Shown one piece after another: positions 7,935-24,282 of a stretch of DNA of 64,000 nt. Below the pieces are notes generated by a model. That model made no database searches, was not told the origin of the DNA, and saw only the letters and a list, made by a program, of their open reading frames with translations. The stretch is from the human T2T-CHM13v2.0 reference genome, Homo sapiens. Position numbers and translations under genes: made by a program. Numbering within the stretch: position 1 is the stretch's first letter; every line of letters begins with the position of its first letter. Where the stretch lies: assembly GCF_009914755.1 (NCBI RefSeq), contig NC_060941.1; one strand, given 5' to 3'.

Positions 7935-8247
7935 CAAGGGTCCCCATTGCCCGGGCCTGGACCAGTACAGTCTGTGGCCTGTTAGGAACCAGGCTGCACA
8001 GCAGGAAGTAAGTGGAGGGCAAGCGAGCATTACTTCCTGAGCTCTGCCTCCTGTTAGATCAGGGGCGGTATTACATTCTCATAGGAGCACGAACCTTATT
8101 GTGAACTGCACACATGAGGACTCTGGGTTGCACGCCTTTTACGAGAATGTAATGGCTGATGATCTGAAGTGGAGCAGTTTCATACCAAAACCATTCCCCC
8201 CTTTCCTCCCAACCCGTCCCTAGTGCCAAAAAGGTTGGGGACTGCTG
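7935..8247 (+). mobile_element. MER1B-like hAT DNA transposon
   Basis: CAAGGGTCCCC...GGCCTGTTAGGAACC...AAAAAGGTTGGGGACTGCTG termini; TTCTA-containing target duplication. Confidence 0.8.
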
Positions 8248-8359
8248 TTCTATGGTATCTATCCCGAAGTGGAGTTGCTGTGTTTTACAGTGTCCACAAT
8301 TTCAGTTTTACTAGGTGTTGCCAAATTGCTCTCCAAAGTGGCTGAAGCTAATTTATTAT

Positions 8360-9650
<1,291 letters not shown>

Positions 9651-10260
9651 TACATATCCTTGATGTTTTTGTCGTTGTTTTTCCCAAATCTCAAATTGTA
9701 AAGAATTGTGAAATTATTAGACTAGTAAAAGAAAAAAAAATAAAGTAGACTAGTGATACAATACAACAGTGAGTTGCTGTATGAAATGTTCATTTTCTTT
9801 TCTAAACAATACTGTGAAAAGCAGGGTCACATTTATCTTAAATGTTCTCAGAGGAAGTTTTTCTTGGTCACTGAGAATGGCTTTGTACAGTATCAACATT
9901 ACATGTATCGGAAAATTTATTTTTGTTTGGGGGCTCATTGGGGATAAAAGTGTACAAGTTATGCAAATAAACCTTTTTTAACATCAGGGGAATTTCATTA
10001 TTCTTAAATACTACCTTCTGCAATTTTTGTTAAAACCATGTTCCACTAACACCTAATTTGTAAAAAAAAAAAAAAAATACAGAGGGATCTAGTGTTAAAA
10101 CAACTTAAAGGCTGTTAGTTTATAGTTCACTTTGTAAATGAGAGTTTATTTTTACCAGTTTAGGGCTTTTTAAAATTATTCATAGAATATTTAATTGTTC
10201 AAGTGTAGCTGATCTAAAACTTTAATGGCATTAAATTTTGGCAATGGAATATGTTGATCA

Positions 10261-11670
<1,410 letters not shown>

Positions 11671-11684
11671 TAAGCCTGTATTGT

Positions 11685-13560
<1,876 letters not shown>

Positions 13561-13563
13561 GAA

Positions 13564-14545
<982 letters not shown>

Positions 14546-14626
14546 ACCCTGGGTATGTGGACCACTCCAGGCCAATGAGACATTAGGGAAAGTTGCTGGG
14601 GGCTCACCTCCCTAATAAAACGATAC

Positions 14627-14952
<326 letters not shown>

Positions 14953-15316
14953 TTATCATGTACAGATGCTTGGAGCTGTGGCAGCTATTTTGCCACCATG
15001 AGGATAAGGCTAAGCAATTTGAAATTAGTCCACACCCCTAAATTATGGAGCTGCTGAATTCTGGAGTGTTTACCTCTAGACTTCTTGCTTTGTGAAATTA
15101 TAAACTCCTCATTGTGTAAGTTATCTTTAGTTGGATAGTCTGTTCTTTGCAGCCTAAAGCATCCTATCGAATACACATGATTTGTAAAATTTGTTGTTGG
15201 TAATACCAGTGCATTTCCTGAAAACAATCTTGTTTGTATTGCAAAGAAGATCAGATAGTAATTATTATAAGGAAAACTATAATCCACTGATTTGTGGTAT
15301 GAGTAAAGCATCAGTT

Positions 15317-15610
15317 CTTTTTTTTTTTTCAAGACAGAGTCACTCTATCGCCCAGGCTGGGGCACAGTGGTGCGATTTCGGCTCACTGCAACCTCCACCT
15401 TCCAGCTTCAAGTGATTCTCCTGTCTCAGCTTCCTGAGTAGCTGGGATTACAGGCGCCCGCCACCATGCCCAGCTAATTTTAGTATTTTTAGTAGAGATG
15501 GGGTTTCACTATGTTGGCCAGGCTAGTCTCAAACTCCTGACCTCAAGTGATCCGCCTGCCTTGGCCTCCTAAAGTGCTGAGATTACAGGCATGAGCCACC
15601 GCACCTGGCC
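15317..15610 (-). mobile_element. Alu with TSD AAGCATCAGTTCTT
   Basis: Alu consensus; direct repeat on both sides. Confidence 0.97.
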
Positions 15611-15631
15611 AAGCATCAGTTCTTAAAACAG

Positions 15632-16114
15632 TTAAGGTGGCAGAACAGGAGTTCTTTCAAAATGATGATTTTCAGTATTTGTGGGTATTTCAACATCATC
15701 ATAGTCATCTTCAGGTTCAATATAGCTCAGGATGGAAACTATCTCCTTATTTCTTTTTTTTTTTTTTTTGAGACAGAGTCTCACTGTTGCCCAGGCTGGA
15801 GTGCAATGTCATGATCTTGGCTCATTGCAACTCTGCCTCCCAGATTCAAGCAATTCTCCTGCCTCAGCTTCCCAAGTAGCTGGAATTACAGGTGCCCGCC
15901 ACCATGCCCGGCTAATTTTTTGTATTGTTAGTAGACACGGGGTTTCACCATCTTGGCCAGGCTGGTCTCGAACTCCTGACCCCCGGTGATCCACCTGCCT
16001 CGGCCTCCCAAAGTGCTGGGATTCCAGGCGTGAGTCACTGCGCCCAGCCCTTATTTCTAACTTTATTTATTGATGAGTATGTATTCAATAGGTAACTTGG
16101 GGATTCCTGTGGTG
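15632..16114 (-). pseudogene. Duplicated SCIMP last coding exon, split by an Alu
   Basis: With Alu and one TSD removed it reads (S)[58 protein letters not shown]; ~81% nt identity (126/155 by hand) to 20162-20316; acceptor TCCAG| at 16115. Confidence 0.92.
15755..16049 (-). mobile_element. AluS-like element inside the duplicated exon
   Basis: Alu consensus; TSD CTTATTTCT at 15746-15754 and 16050-16058. Confidence 0.97.
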
Positions 16115-16499
16115 CTGGACTATACAAAAAGATCCTATTAAATCTTGATATATTTAAATCTCATCCAAACTGGTAACAATTTCCCTAGTAGAAAACTTGG
16201 CTTTATTATACGTTCCCAGTATAAAATCTCAGCCAAATTACACATGTCCAGAGGAAAAAAAATTGTTTTGTCAAACCAATTGGTAGATTTTCCATGAATG
16301 TTCAACAGTCAATAAATATTGCCTACCATGTGCCAGGTTTTGTGCTGGACATTGGGAATACAGCACTGAGACAATTTCCATCCCAAAGGAGCCCCCAGAT
16401 TAGAAAGGAGGATGGAAAGTAACCAGGTAATTATAATTATAATATATAATAATTATAATACAAAGGGAGAAGTATTTCCATAGGGCCAAGTATGGGAGC

Positions 16500-18080
<1,581 letters not shown>

Positions 18081-18453
18081 GAGGGGCCCACTGAGCTCAT
18101 GGACATTGGTGAGATCACTCGTGAGTGTTGGAGGCAGATGGGCAGAGACACAGGGACAGAACCTGAGGAAGACCAGCATTGAAGAGATGCTTCAGAAAGA
18201 GTGGGTGGCCCCAAAATGAGACGGAGACAGGAGGAGAACCAGGAGAGGGTGGCGTCCCAGAAACCAAGGAAGAATCAACATTTGTCTGGCATTTGTTTTT
18301 AACTTTTGTCATAGTCATGGAGGGTTTACAGAACATTTATAAGACGAAAGCATGTGTTTGAAACACTCCAATCCTTTGGCTTATTTTTGTTCTATAATTT
18401 GGGAAGAGTCCTCTCTTTGGCTGGTGGGATACCAGAGTCCCATAAGGCCATAG

Positions 18454-18843
<390 letters not shown>

Positions 18844-20161
18844 TGATTGAGGGAGAAAGCTTGAAAATGGGAGGAACACATTTTCCCATCTCTTGAGGGA
18901 AATCTGAGTCACTCTCAGGCCTTTCCAGGTTCACAGTGCTCTCTCTGCAAGGCTGTTCATTTGCCAGATTTCCCAGAGGTCACTTAGAAACCAGCATCTT
19001 GTGAGTATAGTTAGAATGAGTCAAGTCCTAGGGCTCTGGCGATCAGCTAGAAGGAATTGATGAGGTCTAAGAGCCTATAAAGCTGACTCGGGCCTTGTTG
19101 ACCCCATTAGGACACTTGTTTAACAAGACATCTGCCCATGTCCCTGGCCCATCTCATTGGCTGCAGCACATCACAGTGGACCTTCTGCCTCCTCCCAGAT
19201 GCCCAGGGACAGTGATCTGGAAGGAAGGGGCTTGAGGCTGTTTTCCTAGAACTCGAGTAAGTACTGATGAAAATGATGGACAGGGGATATTAAGCCCCCT
19301 GAACTCTCATCTTGTATATGCCATTGTTACATGCCCCTTTTCTTTCCTGTTCCCCATGATTTGTCCTGGGGGAAATGTATTTTTCCTGTAGCACCCCCAA
19401 CACACCTATTGCAAAATGATGCTTCTAGGTGTAAATCAGAAGGTAACTTTTGTCCTTTGTCCATTGTTACAGTACAACTTGCAAGCACGGGGAGAAAACC
19501 TAGGTGAAAACTCAAATCTCTATGGTCAATTTGGCCTACATCATATAAAGGCACTGGGGTTTGCAGGGTGTCTAGGTGGGGAGGGTTCACGAGAACAAAA
19601 GGTACTCCCTGCCCTTGCAAACTCGCGAGATGTGGTGTGGGAATCTGGGCACGAGAGCACTCAGCTGTAACTCACCCACAGCCTCACAGTGCAGGAGGTG
19701 GGTGGGGTGAGAGGGTAAAGACCAGCATGCTTGGTGAGGGCCTTGCTGGGGATGGGAGCCTGGGAGGGTCTGCACAACCAAATGCTGAGATTTAATATCA
19801 CTCAGAACCATGCAAACCAAAGGGAATGAAGGGGGAAAGAATGCCAAGAAATGAGTAGTTTCCCACAGGTGGGAGCCATGGAGCCCCGTGGTCCTTCCCA
19901 TGGAAAGTTTCCTCAACAGCACAAGGCTGACCCCTCTAAGTCCTCAGAGCCGAGCACCCATGTGTCTCCTCTGGCTGCAGTCATCCGATCGCAGGGGTGT
20001 CTTCATCTAAGGTTTGGGAAGTGCTTTATCTTATAGAGCTTCATAAAATCACCACTGGCTTTCAGGGCCCAGAGACCTACTGAAGTTCAACCATTCTTGA
20101 TTGTTTTAAAATAAGTTGTGTGAACCCTCTTCAGTTTTGCCAAAAAGAAGAAATGGCTGTT

Positions 20162-20316
20162 TCAAAATGATGCTTTTTCAGTATTTGCAGGGATTTCAAC
20201 ATCGTCATAGTCATCTTCAGGCTCAATGTAGCTTGGGATGGAAACAGTCTTCTTATTTTTAACTTTATTTACCAGTGAGTATGTAGCGGGCGGCTGACTT
20301 GGGGCTTCCTGTGGGG
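20162..20316 (-). CDS. SCIMP: SCIMP coding exon 5: (S)[50 protein letters not shown]
   Basis: Acceptor TTCTAG| at 20317, phase 1, TGA at 20162-20164. Confidence 0.97.
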
Positions 20317-20619
20317 CTAGAATACACAAAAAGCTCCTTAGATGCAAAGCTGTCATGTGTTTTTATATTTTTGAAGGCAGTGGCTCAGCGTGATTTTCAC
20401 GTTTCAGTGATCTTCCCACTTCTAGTGGGCCAGATCCCCATTTTACAGAGGAAATTTAGACACAGACCTGACAGAGCCTCAGGATCACCCAAGTGAGTAA
20501 CTGGAAAATATTAGTCAGACATCTTGACTCCCGTATCTTTCTGCCTAAGCCTGCACTGCATGGAAACCATGAAGCAAAAGCTTAGAAAAGAAACAGACCA
20601 GGTCAGGTGCAGAAGCTCA

Positions 20620-23267
<2,648 letters not shown>

Positions 23268-23666: not shown

Positions 23667-24282
<616 letters not shown>

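What the first reader, a model, noticed from the sequence alone, without database searches (positions are those of the whole stretch)
15632..16114. Hidden second copy of SCIMP's signalling exon, apparently long conserved and then broken by an Alu
Seen: 4 kb downstream of exon 5, same strand, is a ~81% identical copy with a phase-1 acceptor (TTTTTGTATAGTCCAG|). With the Alu removed it has no in-frame stop over the aligned length, keeps all three tyrosines, and in [15 protein letters not shown] all five differences are synonymous (TAC/TAT, GAG/GAA, GAC/GAT, ATC/ATA, CCT/CCC). Similarity fades within ~25 nt of the exon edges. Established: Y107 binds Csk and Y131 (YDDV) binds SLP65/76. Inference: this was a functional alternative terminal exon (or the end of a tandem paralogue) giving two cytoplasmic tails, inactivated in primates by an AluS insertion. 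Caveat: the synonymous changes could have fallen mostly on the functional copy.
Basis: partly seen in the sequence, partly recalled or inferred. Interest (0 to 1): 0.85.

Follow-up and report, generated by a model that had tools for sequence, protein, structure and literature searches.

The report
Old broken copy of SCIMP's last exon
About 4 kb downstream of the last coding exon of the immune adaptor gene SCIMP lies an old, partial second copy of that exon, now split by an Alu element and apparently unused in humans, which is an evolutionary curiosity rather than a working gene part.

Summary
With the Alu and one target-site repeat removed, copy 16136-15655 matches parent 20338-20160 (minus strand) at 146 of 179 bases, with an AG acceptor in the right phase, no stop and all three tyrosines. 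The genome holds only these two places.

Three points change the reading:
- The one gap is an extra base in the human parent. The copy keeps the older ...NHHFE frame.
- Similarity stops abruptly, 22 nt into the intron and 54 nt before the ancestral stop. The flanks score no better than shuffles, so about 180 bp was copied.
- One of 120 listed SCIMP protein clusters, cat isoform X1, ends in the orthologue of this copy, including copy-specific flank (0 of 20000 shuffles as close). The duplication therefore predates the human-cat split, but the cat version has lost the [11 protein letters not shown] stretch and changes frame twice.

Evidence for past coding constraint in the human line is suggestive only. 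The tyrosine-motif half has dN/dS 0.09, against 0.78 for the first half, and simulation gives P of about 0.003-0.05.

Verdict: an ancient, spliceable, now dead pseudo-exon. A past working role is possible (about 0.35-0.4) but unproven.

The parts
16115..16136 (-). Copied end of intron 4: a short pyrimidine run and an AG acceptor, matching parent 20317-20338. A second AG lies 5 nt upstream of the acceptor AG.
   Evidence: alignment (17 of 22 identical by my count from it). One search printed both strings, with 12 of 18 pyrimidines at -20..-3 in each. The extra AG was read by eye.
16050..16114 (-). First part of the exon copy: 2 nt plus 21 codons reading PQESPSYLLNTYSSINKVRNK. It holds the equivalent of Y107.
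   Evidence: Pfam SCIMP PF15050 is weak for this piece alone (E 0.052, 14.4 bits).
15755..16049 (-). Alu insertion in the same orientation as SCIMP, with an A tail. Its 9-bp target repeats are at 16050-16058 and 15746-15754. In the exon frame it gives GWAQ and then a stop.
   Evidence: Target repeats. Two Metazoa_SRP-like halves at 15932-16048 and 15768-15912. Stop. 8 CpG in 280 nt. Marked as a masked repeat (15741-16069).
15655..15745 (-). Second part of the exon copy, matching the parent as far as ...NHHFE. It holds the equivalents of Y124 and Y131 (YDDV).
   Evidence: Pfam SCIMP E 9e-11, 42.8 bits against a cut-off of 27. dN/dS 0.09.
15632..15654 (-). Copy-specific continuation of the open frame (RTPVLPP, then TAA at 15634-15632). 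It has no similarity to the parent.
15280..15647 (-). Copy-specific downstream flank (15647-15611 and 15305-15280, on either side of the second Alu). In another frame it is orthologous to the end of cat SCIMP isoform X1, with the stop codon aligned.
   Evidence: 9 of 21 residues identical; at least 14 base differences in 66; 0 of 20000 shuffles and 0 of 63937 offsets on the window's minus strand are as close.
15319..15610 (-). Second Alu, just downstream of the copy, with 13-bp target repeats at 15611-15623 and 15306-15318.
   Evidence: 7 CpG in 280 nt.
20160..20338 (-). Parent: the last 22 nt of intron 4 plus the coding start of SCIMP's last exon (coding part 20316-20162).
   Evidence: Pfam SCIMP E 2.6e-21.
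20173..20178 (-). Run in the parent that holds one extra base relative to the copy and to most orthologues. It shifts the human frame to EKASF followed by a stop.
   Evidence: six equally good positions for the extra base. (the old tail is readable in two other frames, down to a stop at about 20108-20106). Orthologue tails.

Best explanation
The feature is the relic of a short local DNA duplication of about 180 bp. The copied piece comprised the last 22 nt of intron 4, the acceptor, and the first 157 nt of SCIMP's terminal coding exon. It landed a few kb downstream on the same strand, before the human and cat lineages split.

Because it carried an acceptor in the right phase, transcripts that ran past the normal end of the gene could splice exon 4 to it. 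The cat gene model still does this. It was not kept as a coding exon across mammals. The cat copy has lost the YDDV stretch, and the first half of the human copy drifted like neutral DNA.

In humans it is dead. An Alu splits it and puts a stop right after the Y107-like motif. No AATAAA or ATTAAA follows within 5.4 kb on its strand, and no RefSeq transcript uses it. On this reading, the good preservation of the tyrosine-motif half is luck acting on a small number of sites.

Shown: the paralogy, the sharp edges, the age (older than the human-cat split), the break by the Alu, and the lack of annotation. Inferred: the mode of duplication, and that any use was occasional rather than selected.
For: - Paralogy: 146 of 179 identical; core score 194 against 17.9 +/- 3.1 in shuffles; only 2 places in the genome.
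- Sharp edges: blastn of the masked region 18100-22400 against 8000-18099 finds only the exon. The immediate 100-nt flanks score at or below shuffles (3' flank: 1712 of 2000 shuffles reach the observed score; 5' flank: 1126 of 2000). The 300-400-nt flanks behave the same (273 and 263 of 500).
- The 3' edge at 20160 lies 54 nt before the old stop at about 20106.
- Age: cat P0097 matches the copy locus in three collinear pieces, including copy-specific flank.
- Decay: the cat version lacks the [11 protein letters not shown] stretch and changes frame twice. The human first half has dN/dS 0.78.
- The total of 28 differences in 156 nt equals the neutral-copy simulation mean at d = 0.15 (27.5).
- Dead in humans: stop inside the Alu; no AWTAAA on the minus strand between 15632 and 10226; no transcript in RefSeq uses it.
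- Only 1 of 120 listed SCIMP protein clusters has a copy-type tail.
Against: - The tyrosine-motif half (codons 28-52) has dS 0.55 but dN 0.05. Under a neutral copy and a constrained parent, P(3 or fewer residue differences there) is 0.023 at d = 0.15 and 0.0027 at d = 0.2. P(an identical run of 15 or more residues anywhere) is 0.052 and 0.0099.
- There is no stop (P about 0.45-0.53) and no frame-shifting gap in the copy over 52 codons.
- The halves were chosen after seeing the data, which weakens these values but does not remove them.
- Isoforms that differ only in a 50-residue tail could be hidden inside the 90%-identity clusters. In addition, 42 of 162 hits were not listed.
Confidence: 0.5

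Rival explanations
1. The copy was a working alternative last exon that gave SCIMP a second cytoplasmic tail. That tail carried the same Csk/Syk and SLP65/76 docking tyrosines but not the conserved far-C-terminal tail. Purifying selection on the tyrosine-motif half kept it in the line leading to primates until the Alu insertion destroyed it. Cats lost the coding sense independently.
For: - dN/dS is 0.09 in codons 28-52, with dS 0.55. The region is therefore as old as the rest and lacks only residue changes.
- Simulation P = 0.0027-0.023 for so few residue differences.
- There is no stop and no frame shift in 52 codons.
- Of the 13 columns that are at least 90% conserved among orthologues, the copy keeps 12 and changes one conservatively, V to I (my count).
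- The motif around the first tyrosine reads YSSI, and many orthologues have YSSV there.
- The cat model splices to the orthologous exon.
- The number of residue changes since any loss of constraint is small, as expected if the Alu arrived late.
Against: - The cat orthologue lacks the motif.
- The first half of the human copy is neutral-like (dN/dS 0.78).
- The copy lies beyond the gene's annotated 3' end, and no poly(A) hexamer follows it.
- The acceptor has a competing AG 5 nt upstream.
- Only about 6-8 informative differences underlie the test, and the split into halves was made after seeing the data.
- None of the 119 other listed clusters shows such a tail.
Confidence: 0.38
2. The motif half looks young because the parent overwrote it by gene conversion some time after the duplication. 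The copy was neutral throughout.
For: - The two copies lie 4 kb apart on one strand.
- Fewer differences fall in the second half: 8 in 75 nt, against 20 in 81 nt in the first half.
- The P-to-L change shared with cat lies just outside that half.
Against: - Synonymous divergence in that half is not reduced (dS 0.55, against 0.36 in the first half). Conversion would lower it.
- The residual differences are mostly synonymous (5 synonymous, 3 not, with 1 of the 3 on the parent's side by comparison with orthologues).
Confidence: 0.08
3. The similarity is due to chance, to a shared dispersed repeat, or to a processed (retro-) copy of the mRNA.
For: None found.
Against: - 0 of 200 shuffles reach the core score.
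- Only 2 places match in the genome.
- The copy includes 22 nt of intron and only part of one exon, so it is not a retrocopy.
- Pfam SCIMP match at 42.8 bits.
Confidence: 0.01

Closest known systems
Tandem or local exon duplications that give alternative exons (described in genome-wide surveys of duplicated exons; recalled, not read here)
   Same: The paralogous exon lies on the same strand in the same locus. It has the same phase and its own acceptor, and at least one species' gene model uses it as an alternative exon.
   Different: Only part of the coding exon was copied, and the last 18 ancestral codons are missing. It lies beyond the gene's annotated 3' end rather than inside an intron. 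It is not kept open in cat and is broken in humans, and no human transcript uses it.
Exons or pseudogenes disabled by an Alu insertion
   Same: A full-length Alu with an A tail and perfect target repeats sits inside the reading frame and brings in a stop.
   Different: It is not known that the exon was still in use when the Alu arrived.
SCIMP's annotated alternative last exon (NM_001319190; coding part 24120-24229)
   Same: It is another alternative 3' end for the same gene, spliced from exon 4.
   Different: That exon lies inside a masked repeat and gives an unrelated tail without tyrosine motifs. It is annotated in humans, and the copy studied here is not.

Membership tests
SCIMP protein family (Pfam PF15050) | Match to the family profile above its curated cut-off (27 bits) | tested here: met
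   Copy part 2 scores 42.8 bits (E 9e-11, profile positions 103-132 of 132). Copy part 1 alone scores 14.4 bits (E 0.052). The parent exon scores 76.8 bits.
Duplicated exon serving as an alternative (terminal) exon | Paralogous to a neighbouring exon, on the same strand, with the same phase and the frame preserved | tested here: met
   146 of 179 bases identical, phase 1, and 52 codons without a stop or frame shift once the Alu is removed.
Duplicated exon serving as an alternative (terminal) exon | Used in transcripts of the species in question | tested here: not met
   No RefSeq transcript of the window uses it. RNA reads could not be searched. A cat gene model (P0097) does use the orthologue.
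Duplicated exon serving as an alternative (terminal) exon | Open frame and motif kept in other species | tested here: not met
   The one orthologue seen, cat P0097, lacks the [11 protein letters not shown] stretch and changes frame twice relative to humans. DNA of other mammals was not available.
Duplicated exon serving as an alternative (terminal) exon | Cleavage and poly(A) signal downstream | tested here: not met
   No AATAAA or ATTAAA on the minus strand between 15632 and 10226. Variant hexamers were not scored.
Duplicated exon serving as an alternative (terminal) exon | Purifying selection on the copy's own branch | tested here: inconclusive
   Pairwise dN/dS is 0.36 overall, 0.78 in the first half and 0.09 in the second half. 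Simulation P is 0.0027-0.052 depending on the statistic and the rate. Branch-wise tests need other genomes.
Processed pseudogene (retrocopy) | Intron-less copy of the mRNA with a poly(A) tail | tested here: not met
   The copy holds 22 nt of intron 4 and only part of one exon. Exons 1-4 are not found nearby.
Tandem paralogue of SCIMP | Copies of the other exons next to it | tested here: not met
   tblastn with four orthologues against the window; the printed part of the output (the rows for Pongo P0026) shows, apart from the SCIMP exons themselves, only the two halves of this copy and the frame-shifted old tail of the parent below E = 0.01.
Alu element | Dimeric 7SL-derived body, A tail and target-site repeats | tested here: met
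   two Metazoa_SRP-like halves per insert, 46-53 bits, below the gathering score of 70; target repeats of 9 bp and 13 bp. Subfamily not determined.

The most novel reading that the evidence does not exclude
Early placental mammals made SCIMP with two alternative signalling tails from a duplicated last exon. The second tail carried the paired Csk/Syk and SLP65/76 docking tyrosines but not the conserved far-C-terminal tail. Selection kept it in the line to primates until a primate Alu insertion destroyed it. Cats still splice to the same exon but now make a tail without the SLP65/76 site.
Probability: 0.35. Interest if true: 0.55.

Novelty: new member of a known kind. Interest (0 to 1): 0.35.

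Why it matters
If the copy once worked, SCIMP, an adaptor of MHC class II and Toll-like receptor signalling, would have had a second, switchable tail in early mammals, one that humans lost and some species may still use. That would matter when signalling results are carried over between species.

As it stands, it is a well-dated example of a short exon duplication that stayed spliceable for roughly the age of the placental orders. It is also a reminder that sharp edges of similarity can mark the breakpoints of a small duplication rather than selection.

I found no paper that describes it. Searches of the held library gave no relevant hit.

Tried and rejected
- **Flank homology.** Masked blastn, a permissive local alignment and a stricter one with shuffles all found nothing beyond the core. 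The gap costs were too lax and gave near-global alignments, so that call carries little weight (62 of 300 and 95 of 300 shuffles reached the observed scores; 54 of 82 unrelated control stretches did so for the 3' flank).
- **Tandem paralogue.** No further copies of exons 1-4.
- **Dispersed repeat.** Only 2 places in the genome. That tool warns that it scores only the best candidates.
- **Retrocopy.** Rejected, because the copy contains intron sequence.
- **Protein tree** of the exon-5 segment: 49 rows (46 orthologue clusters picked by me from the 120, one per genus, plus the human parent, the human copy and the cat copy), with 69 columns kept. It was unresolved (1 of 46 inner branches starred). 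The AU tests rejected neither 'human copy inside primates' (p 0.8) nor 'human copy plus cat copy' (p 0.74). The tree therefore gives no date.
- **Conserved versus variable columns.** The copy changes 1 of 13 conserved columns. I estimated about 10 changes in the 38 other columns but did not count them in a call. That would not be a significant difference, and I did no formal test.
- **TM-domain-like peptide match downstream of the copy** (15292-15242). It scores E = 23 at window scale, so I take it for chance in AT-rich DNA.
- **** (bacterial promoter and terminator scan) is irrelevant to a human locus and was a wasted call.
- **** printed wrong offsets for AG positions. I read the AGs by eye instead.
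- **Human residue numbers.** One search found no SCIMP paper giving human residue numbers. Y107, Y124 and Y131 are my own codon count. Their partners are taken from passages of PMC9052152, which give the mouse sites: Y58 Grb2, Y96 Csk and the Syk N-terminal SH2 domain, Y120 SLP65 and the Syk C-terminal SH2 domain. The first description of SCIMP is recalled only and was not seen.
- **Recalled rates.** The neutral rate for the human line since the placental radiation (d about 0.15) and the ratio of gaps to substitutions are recalled values, not computed here.
- **Limits of the protein searches.** All 3 were used. Candidates known from samples alone or of untold source were left out before scoring: 8, 8 and 7227. 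42 of the 162 hits were not listed. Clusters at 90% identity may hide isoforms that differ only in the tail.
- **Supplements.** No supplementary files were asked for.

Full report
**What is there**

SCIMP lies on the minus strand. Its last exon is 20316-18281, with the coding part at 20316-20162. It starts in phase 1, with two bases followed by 51 codons including TGA.

On the same strand, 4.2 kb further on and 2.2 kb beyond the annotated 3' end of the mRNA, there is an AG acceptor-like site at 16117-16115. It is followed by a stretch that resembles the exon.

That stretch is interrupted by a full-length Alu at 16049-15755, which has an A tail and perfect 9-bp target repeats. Rfam sees two signal-recognition-particle-RNA-like halves in it and in a second Alu at 15610-15319. 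The second Alu has 13-bp target repeats.

With the first Alu and one target repeat taken out by coordinates, parent 20338-20160 aligns with copy 16136-15655 at 146 of 179 bases (81.6%) with one gap. This score is far above shuffles (194 against 17.9 +/- 3.1; 0 of 200 reach it).

The copy translates as PQESPSYLLNTYSSINKVRNK and then [37 protein letters not shown], followed by a stop. The second piece alone passes the Pfam SCIMP cut-off (42.8 bits against 27). A search of the whole reference finds only the parent and this copy (2 places). Only the Alu subfamily was not determined.

**Three corrections**

First, the single gap is not a loss in the copy.
- SCIMP proteins of other mammals read ...NHHF(E) at this point, as the copy does. 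Examples are aye-aye P0001, tarsier P0025 and tree shrew P0016, whose tail ends ...NHHFETAVSSFWQAEEGSHNLF.
- The human parent has one extra base in the run 20173-20178, which gives EKASF followed by a stop.
- The old tail can still be read in the parent's two other frames ([15 protein letters not shown], then ...EEGSHNLF and a stop at about 20108-20106).

Second, the similarity between copy and parent therefore ends at 20160, which is 54 nt inside the ancestral coding part and not at an exon edge.

Third, the edges are sharp.
- Masked blastn of 18100-22400 against 8000-18099 finds only the exon.
- The flanks next to the core score no better than shuffles. For the 100-nt flanks, 1712 of 2000 (3') and 1126 of 2000 (5') shuffles reach the observed score. 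For the 300-400-nt flanks the figures are 273 and 263 of 500.
- The 22 intron bases are 17 of 22 identical and dS is 0.43. Neutral flanks of the same age should therefore still be roughly two thirds identical and detectable.
- The simplest reading is that only about 180 bp was copied: 22 nt of intron plus 157 nt of exon.
- There are no copies of exons 1-4 downstream, so this is not the end of a tandem gene copy. Because it contains intron sequence, it is not a retrocopy.

**Age**

I reached full-length SCIMP proteins in three steps. The last search gave 162 hits at E <= 0.01, of which 120 were listed. Among those 120 clusters, one has a tail of the copy type: Felis catus isoform X1 (P0097, 156 residues).

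Its tail differs from the cat-family parent tail (P0041) at many places. It matches the human copy locus in three collinear pieces:
- Residues 96-123 match 16112-15725 in the exon frame (15 of 28 identical, including the L of VSILS).
- Residues 127-135 match 15675-15649 in a second frame (8 of 9).
- Residues 136-156 plus the stop match 15647-15280 in a third frame, running across the site of the human second Alu (9 of 21).

This last piece is copy-specific sequence with no counterpart in the parent. The human DNA needs at least 14 base changes in 66 to encode the cat peptide, against 32.2 +/- 3.1 for shuffled peptides. 0 of 20000 shuffles were as close, and the closest needed 20 changes. No other offset on the window's minus strand is as close (0 of 63937).

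The cat exon is therefore the orthologue of the human copy, and the duplication is older than the human-cat split. The copy is of the placental type rather than the marsupial type by eye.

The protein tree of this short segment is unresolved, and its tests reject nothing.

The cat version has only three or four residues where humans have [18 protein letters not shown], and it shifts frame twice relative to humans. The cat model thus shows that the exon can be spliced from exon 4, and also that its coding sense was not kept in that line.

**Was the human-line copy ever under coding selection?**

I compared 52 codons after dropping the parent's extra base.

| Region | dS | dN | dN/dS | Differences |
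|---|---|---|---|---|
| All 52 codons | 0.43 | 0.156 | 0.36 | 28 nt |
| Codons 1-27 | 0.36 | 0.281 | 0.78 | 20 nt |
| Codons 28-52 | 0.55 | 0.05 | 0.09 | 5 synonymous, 3 non-synonymous |

By comparison with orthologues, one of the three non-synonymous differences (K for N) lies on the parent's side, and one lies at the very edge of the homology.

I simulated a neutral copy and a constrained parent.

| Quantity | d = 0.15 per branch | d = 0.2 per branch |
|---|---|---|
| Mean total differences | 27.5 (observed 28) | 34.9 |
| P(no stop) | 0.53 | 0.445 |
| P(identical residue run of 15 or more anywhere) | 0.052 | 0.0099 |
| P(3 or fewer residue differences in the second half) | 0.023 | 0.0027 |

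The rate d = 0.2 is the one suggested by dS.

Synonymous divergence in the second half is not reduced, which speaks against a late gene conversion. The copy also has no frame-shifting gap over 52 codons.

Against selection:
- The first half looks neutral.
- The cat copy decayed.
- The acceptor has a rival AG 5 nt upstream.
- There is no AATAAA or ATTAAA on the strand for 5.4 kb after the stop.
- The test rests on a handful of differences and on a split chosen after seeing the data.

I put the chance of a past selected role at about 0.35-0.4.

**How it works or worked**

In humans, any transcript spliced from exon 4 (last base T, making a Ser codon with either CC or CA) to the copy would read ...PQESPSYLLNTYSSINKVRNKGWAQ and stop inside the Alu. 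It would lose the equivalents of Y124 and Y131. RefSeq lists no such transcript.

Passages of PMC9052152 give the mouse sites:
- Y58 binds Grb2.
- Y96 binds Csk and the Syk N-terminal SH2 domain.
- Y120 binds SLP65 and the Syk C-terminal SH2 domain.

By alignment of rodent and human tails and my own codon count, Y96 and Y120 correspond to human Y107 and Y131. An intact copy would thus have offered the same paired docking sites on a tail that lacks the conserved far-C-terminal stretch.

**Comparison and novelty**

This is a duplicated-exon relic, which is a known kind of feature. I found no description of it: searches of the held library gave no relevant hit. It differs from textbook alternative duplicated exons in three ways:
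- It is a partial copy.
- It lies beyond the gene's annotated end.
- It is decayed in both species in which I could see it.

**Verdict**

The feature is an ancient, short, spliceable and now dead copy of SCIMP's signalling exon. A past working role in the line to primates is possible but unproven. A multi-species alignment of this one locus would decide it.

Noticed in passing
window 20106-20182 (minus strand): The human SCIMP parent exon has itself lost the conserved placental C-terminal tail (...NHHFET..SSFWQAEEGSH.LF in many orthologues). One extra base in the run 20173-20178 gives EKASF followed by a stop, and the old tail is still readable across two other frames. The orang-utan and green monkey models keep ...EKHHFET..., and carnivore proteins also end early (...EKQRF, ...EKRHF). 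The tail has therefore been lost more than once.
   Followed up: partly
window 24120-24229 (minus strand): The annotated alternative last coding exon of SCIMP (NM_001319190) lies inside a masked repeat (23669-24263). It gives a tail with no SCIMP motifs (...[35 protein letters not shown]). Similar tails occur in other primate entries (P0101, P0102, P0107).
   Followed up: no
window 15242-15292 (minus strand): Just downstream of the exon copy, one frame reads NQWIIVFLIIITI, a stop, then SSL. This weakly resembles SCIMP's transmembrane segment (up to 9 of 17 identical). It scores E = 0.001-0.03 only in a 226-nt search space and E = 23 at window scale, so it is probably chance in AT-rich DNA.
   Followed up: partly
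window 16062-16071 and 20264-20269 (minus strand): Both the parent exon and the copy carry AATAAA inside the coding part (the ...NK V... codons). The copy has two overlapping hexamers.
   Followed up: no
window 15425-15476, 15863-15914, 15498-15558: There are sub-threshold Rfam matches to mir-1268 and mir-1285 inside the two Alus. These are ordinary for Alu sequence.
   Followed up: no
protein P0103 (Bos mutus): A yak 'hypothetical protein' jumps from ...AAYSS straight into a frame-shifted reading of the parent exon's tail region (KIIILKQTFLPFGK...). This looks like a gene-model artefact and not a second exon copy.
   Followed up: no
whole window: AATAAA and ATTAAA hexamers are about twice as frequent as in shuffles (129 against 67.8 +/- 7.6). 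Many of them occur in closely spaced runs.
   Followed up: no
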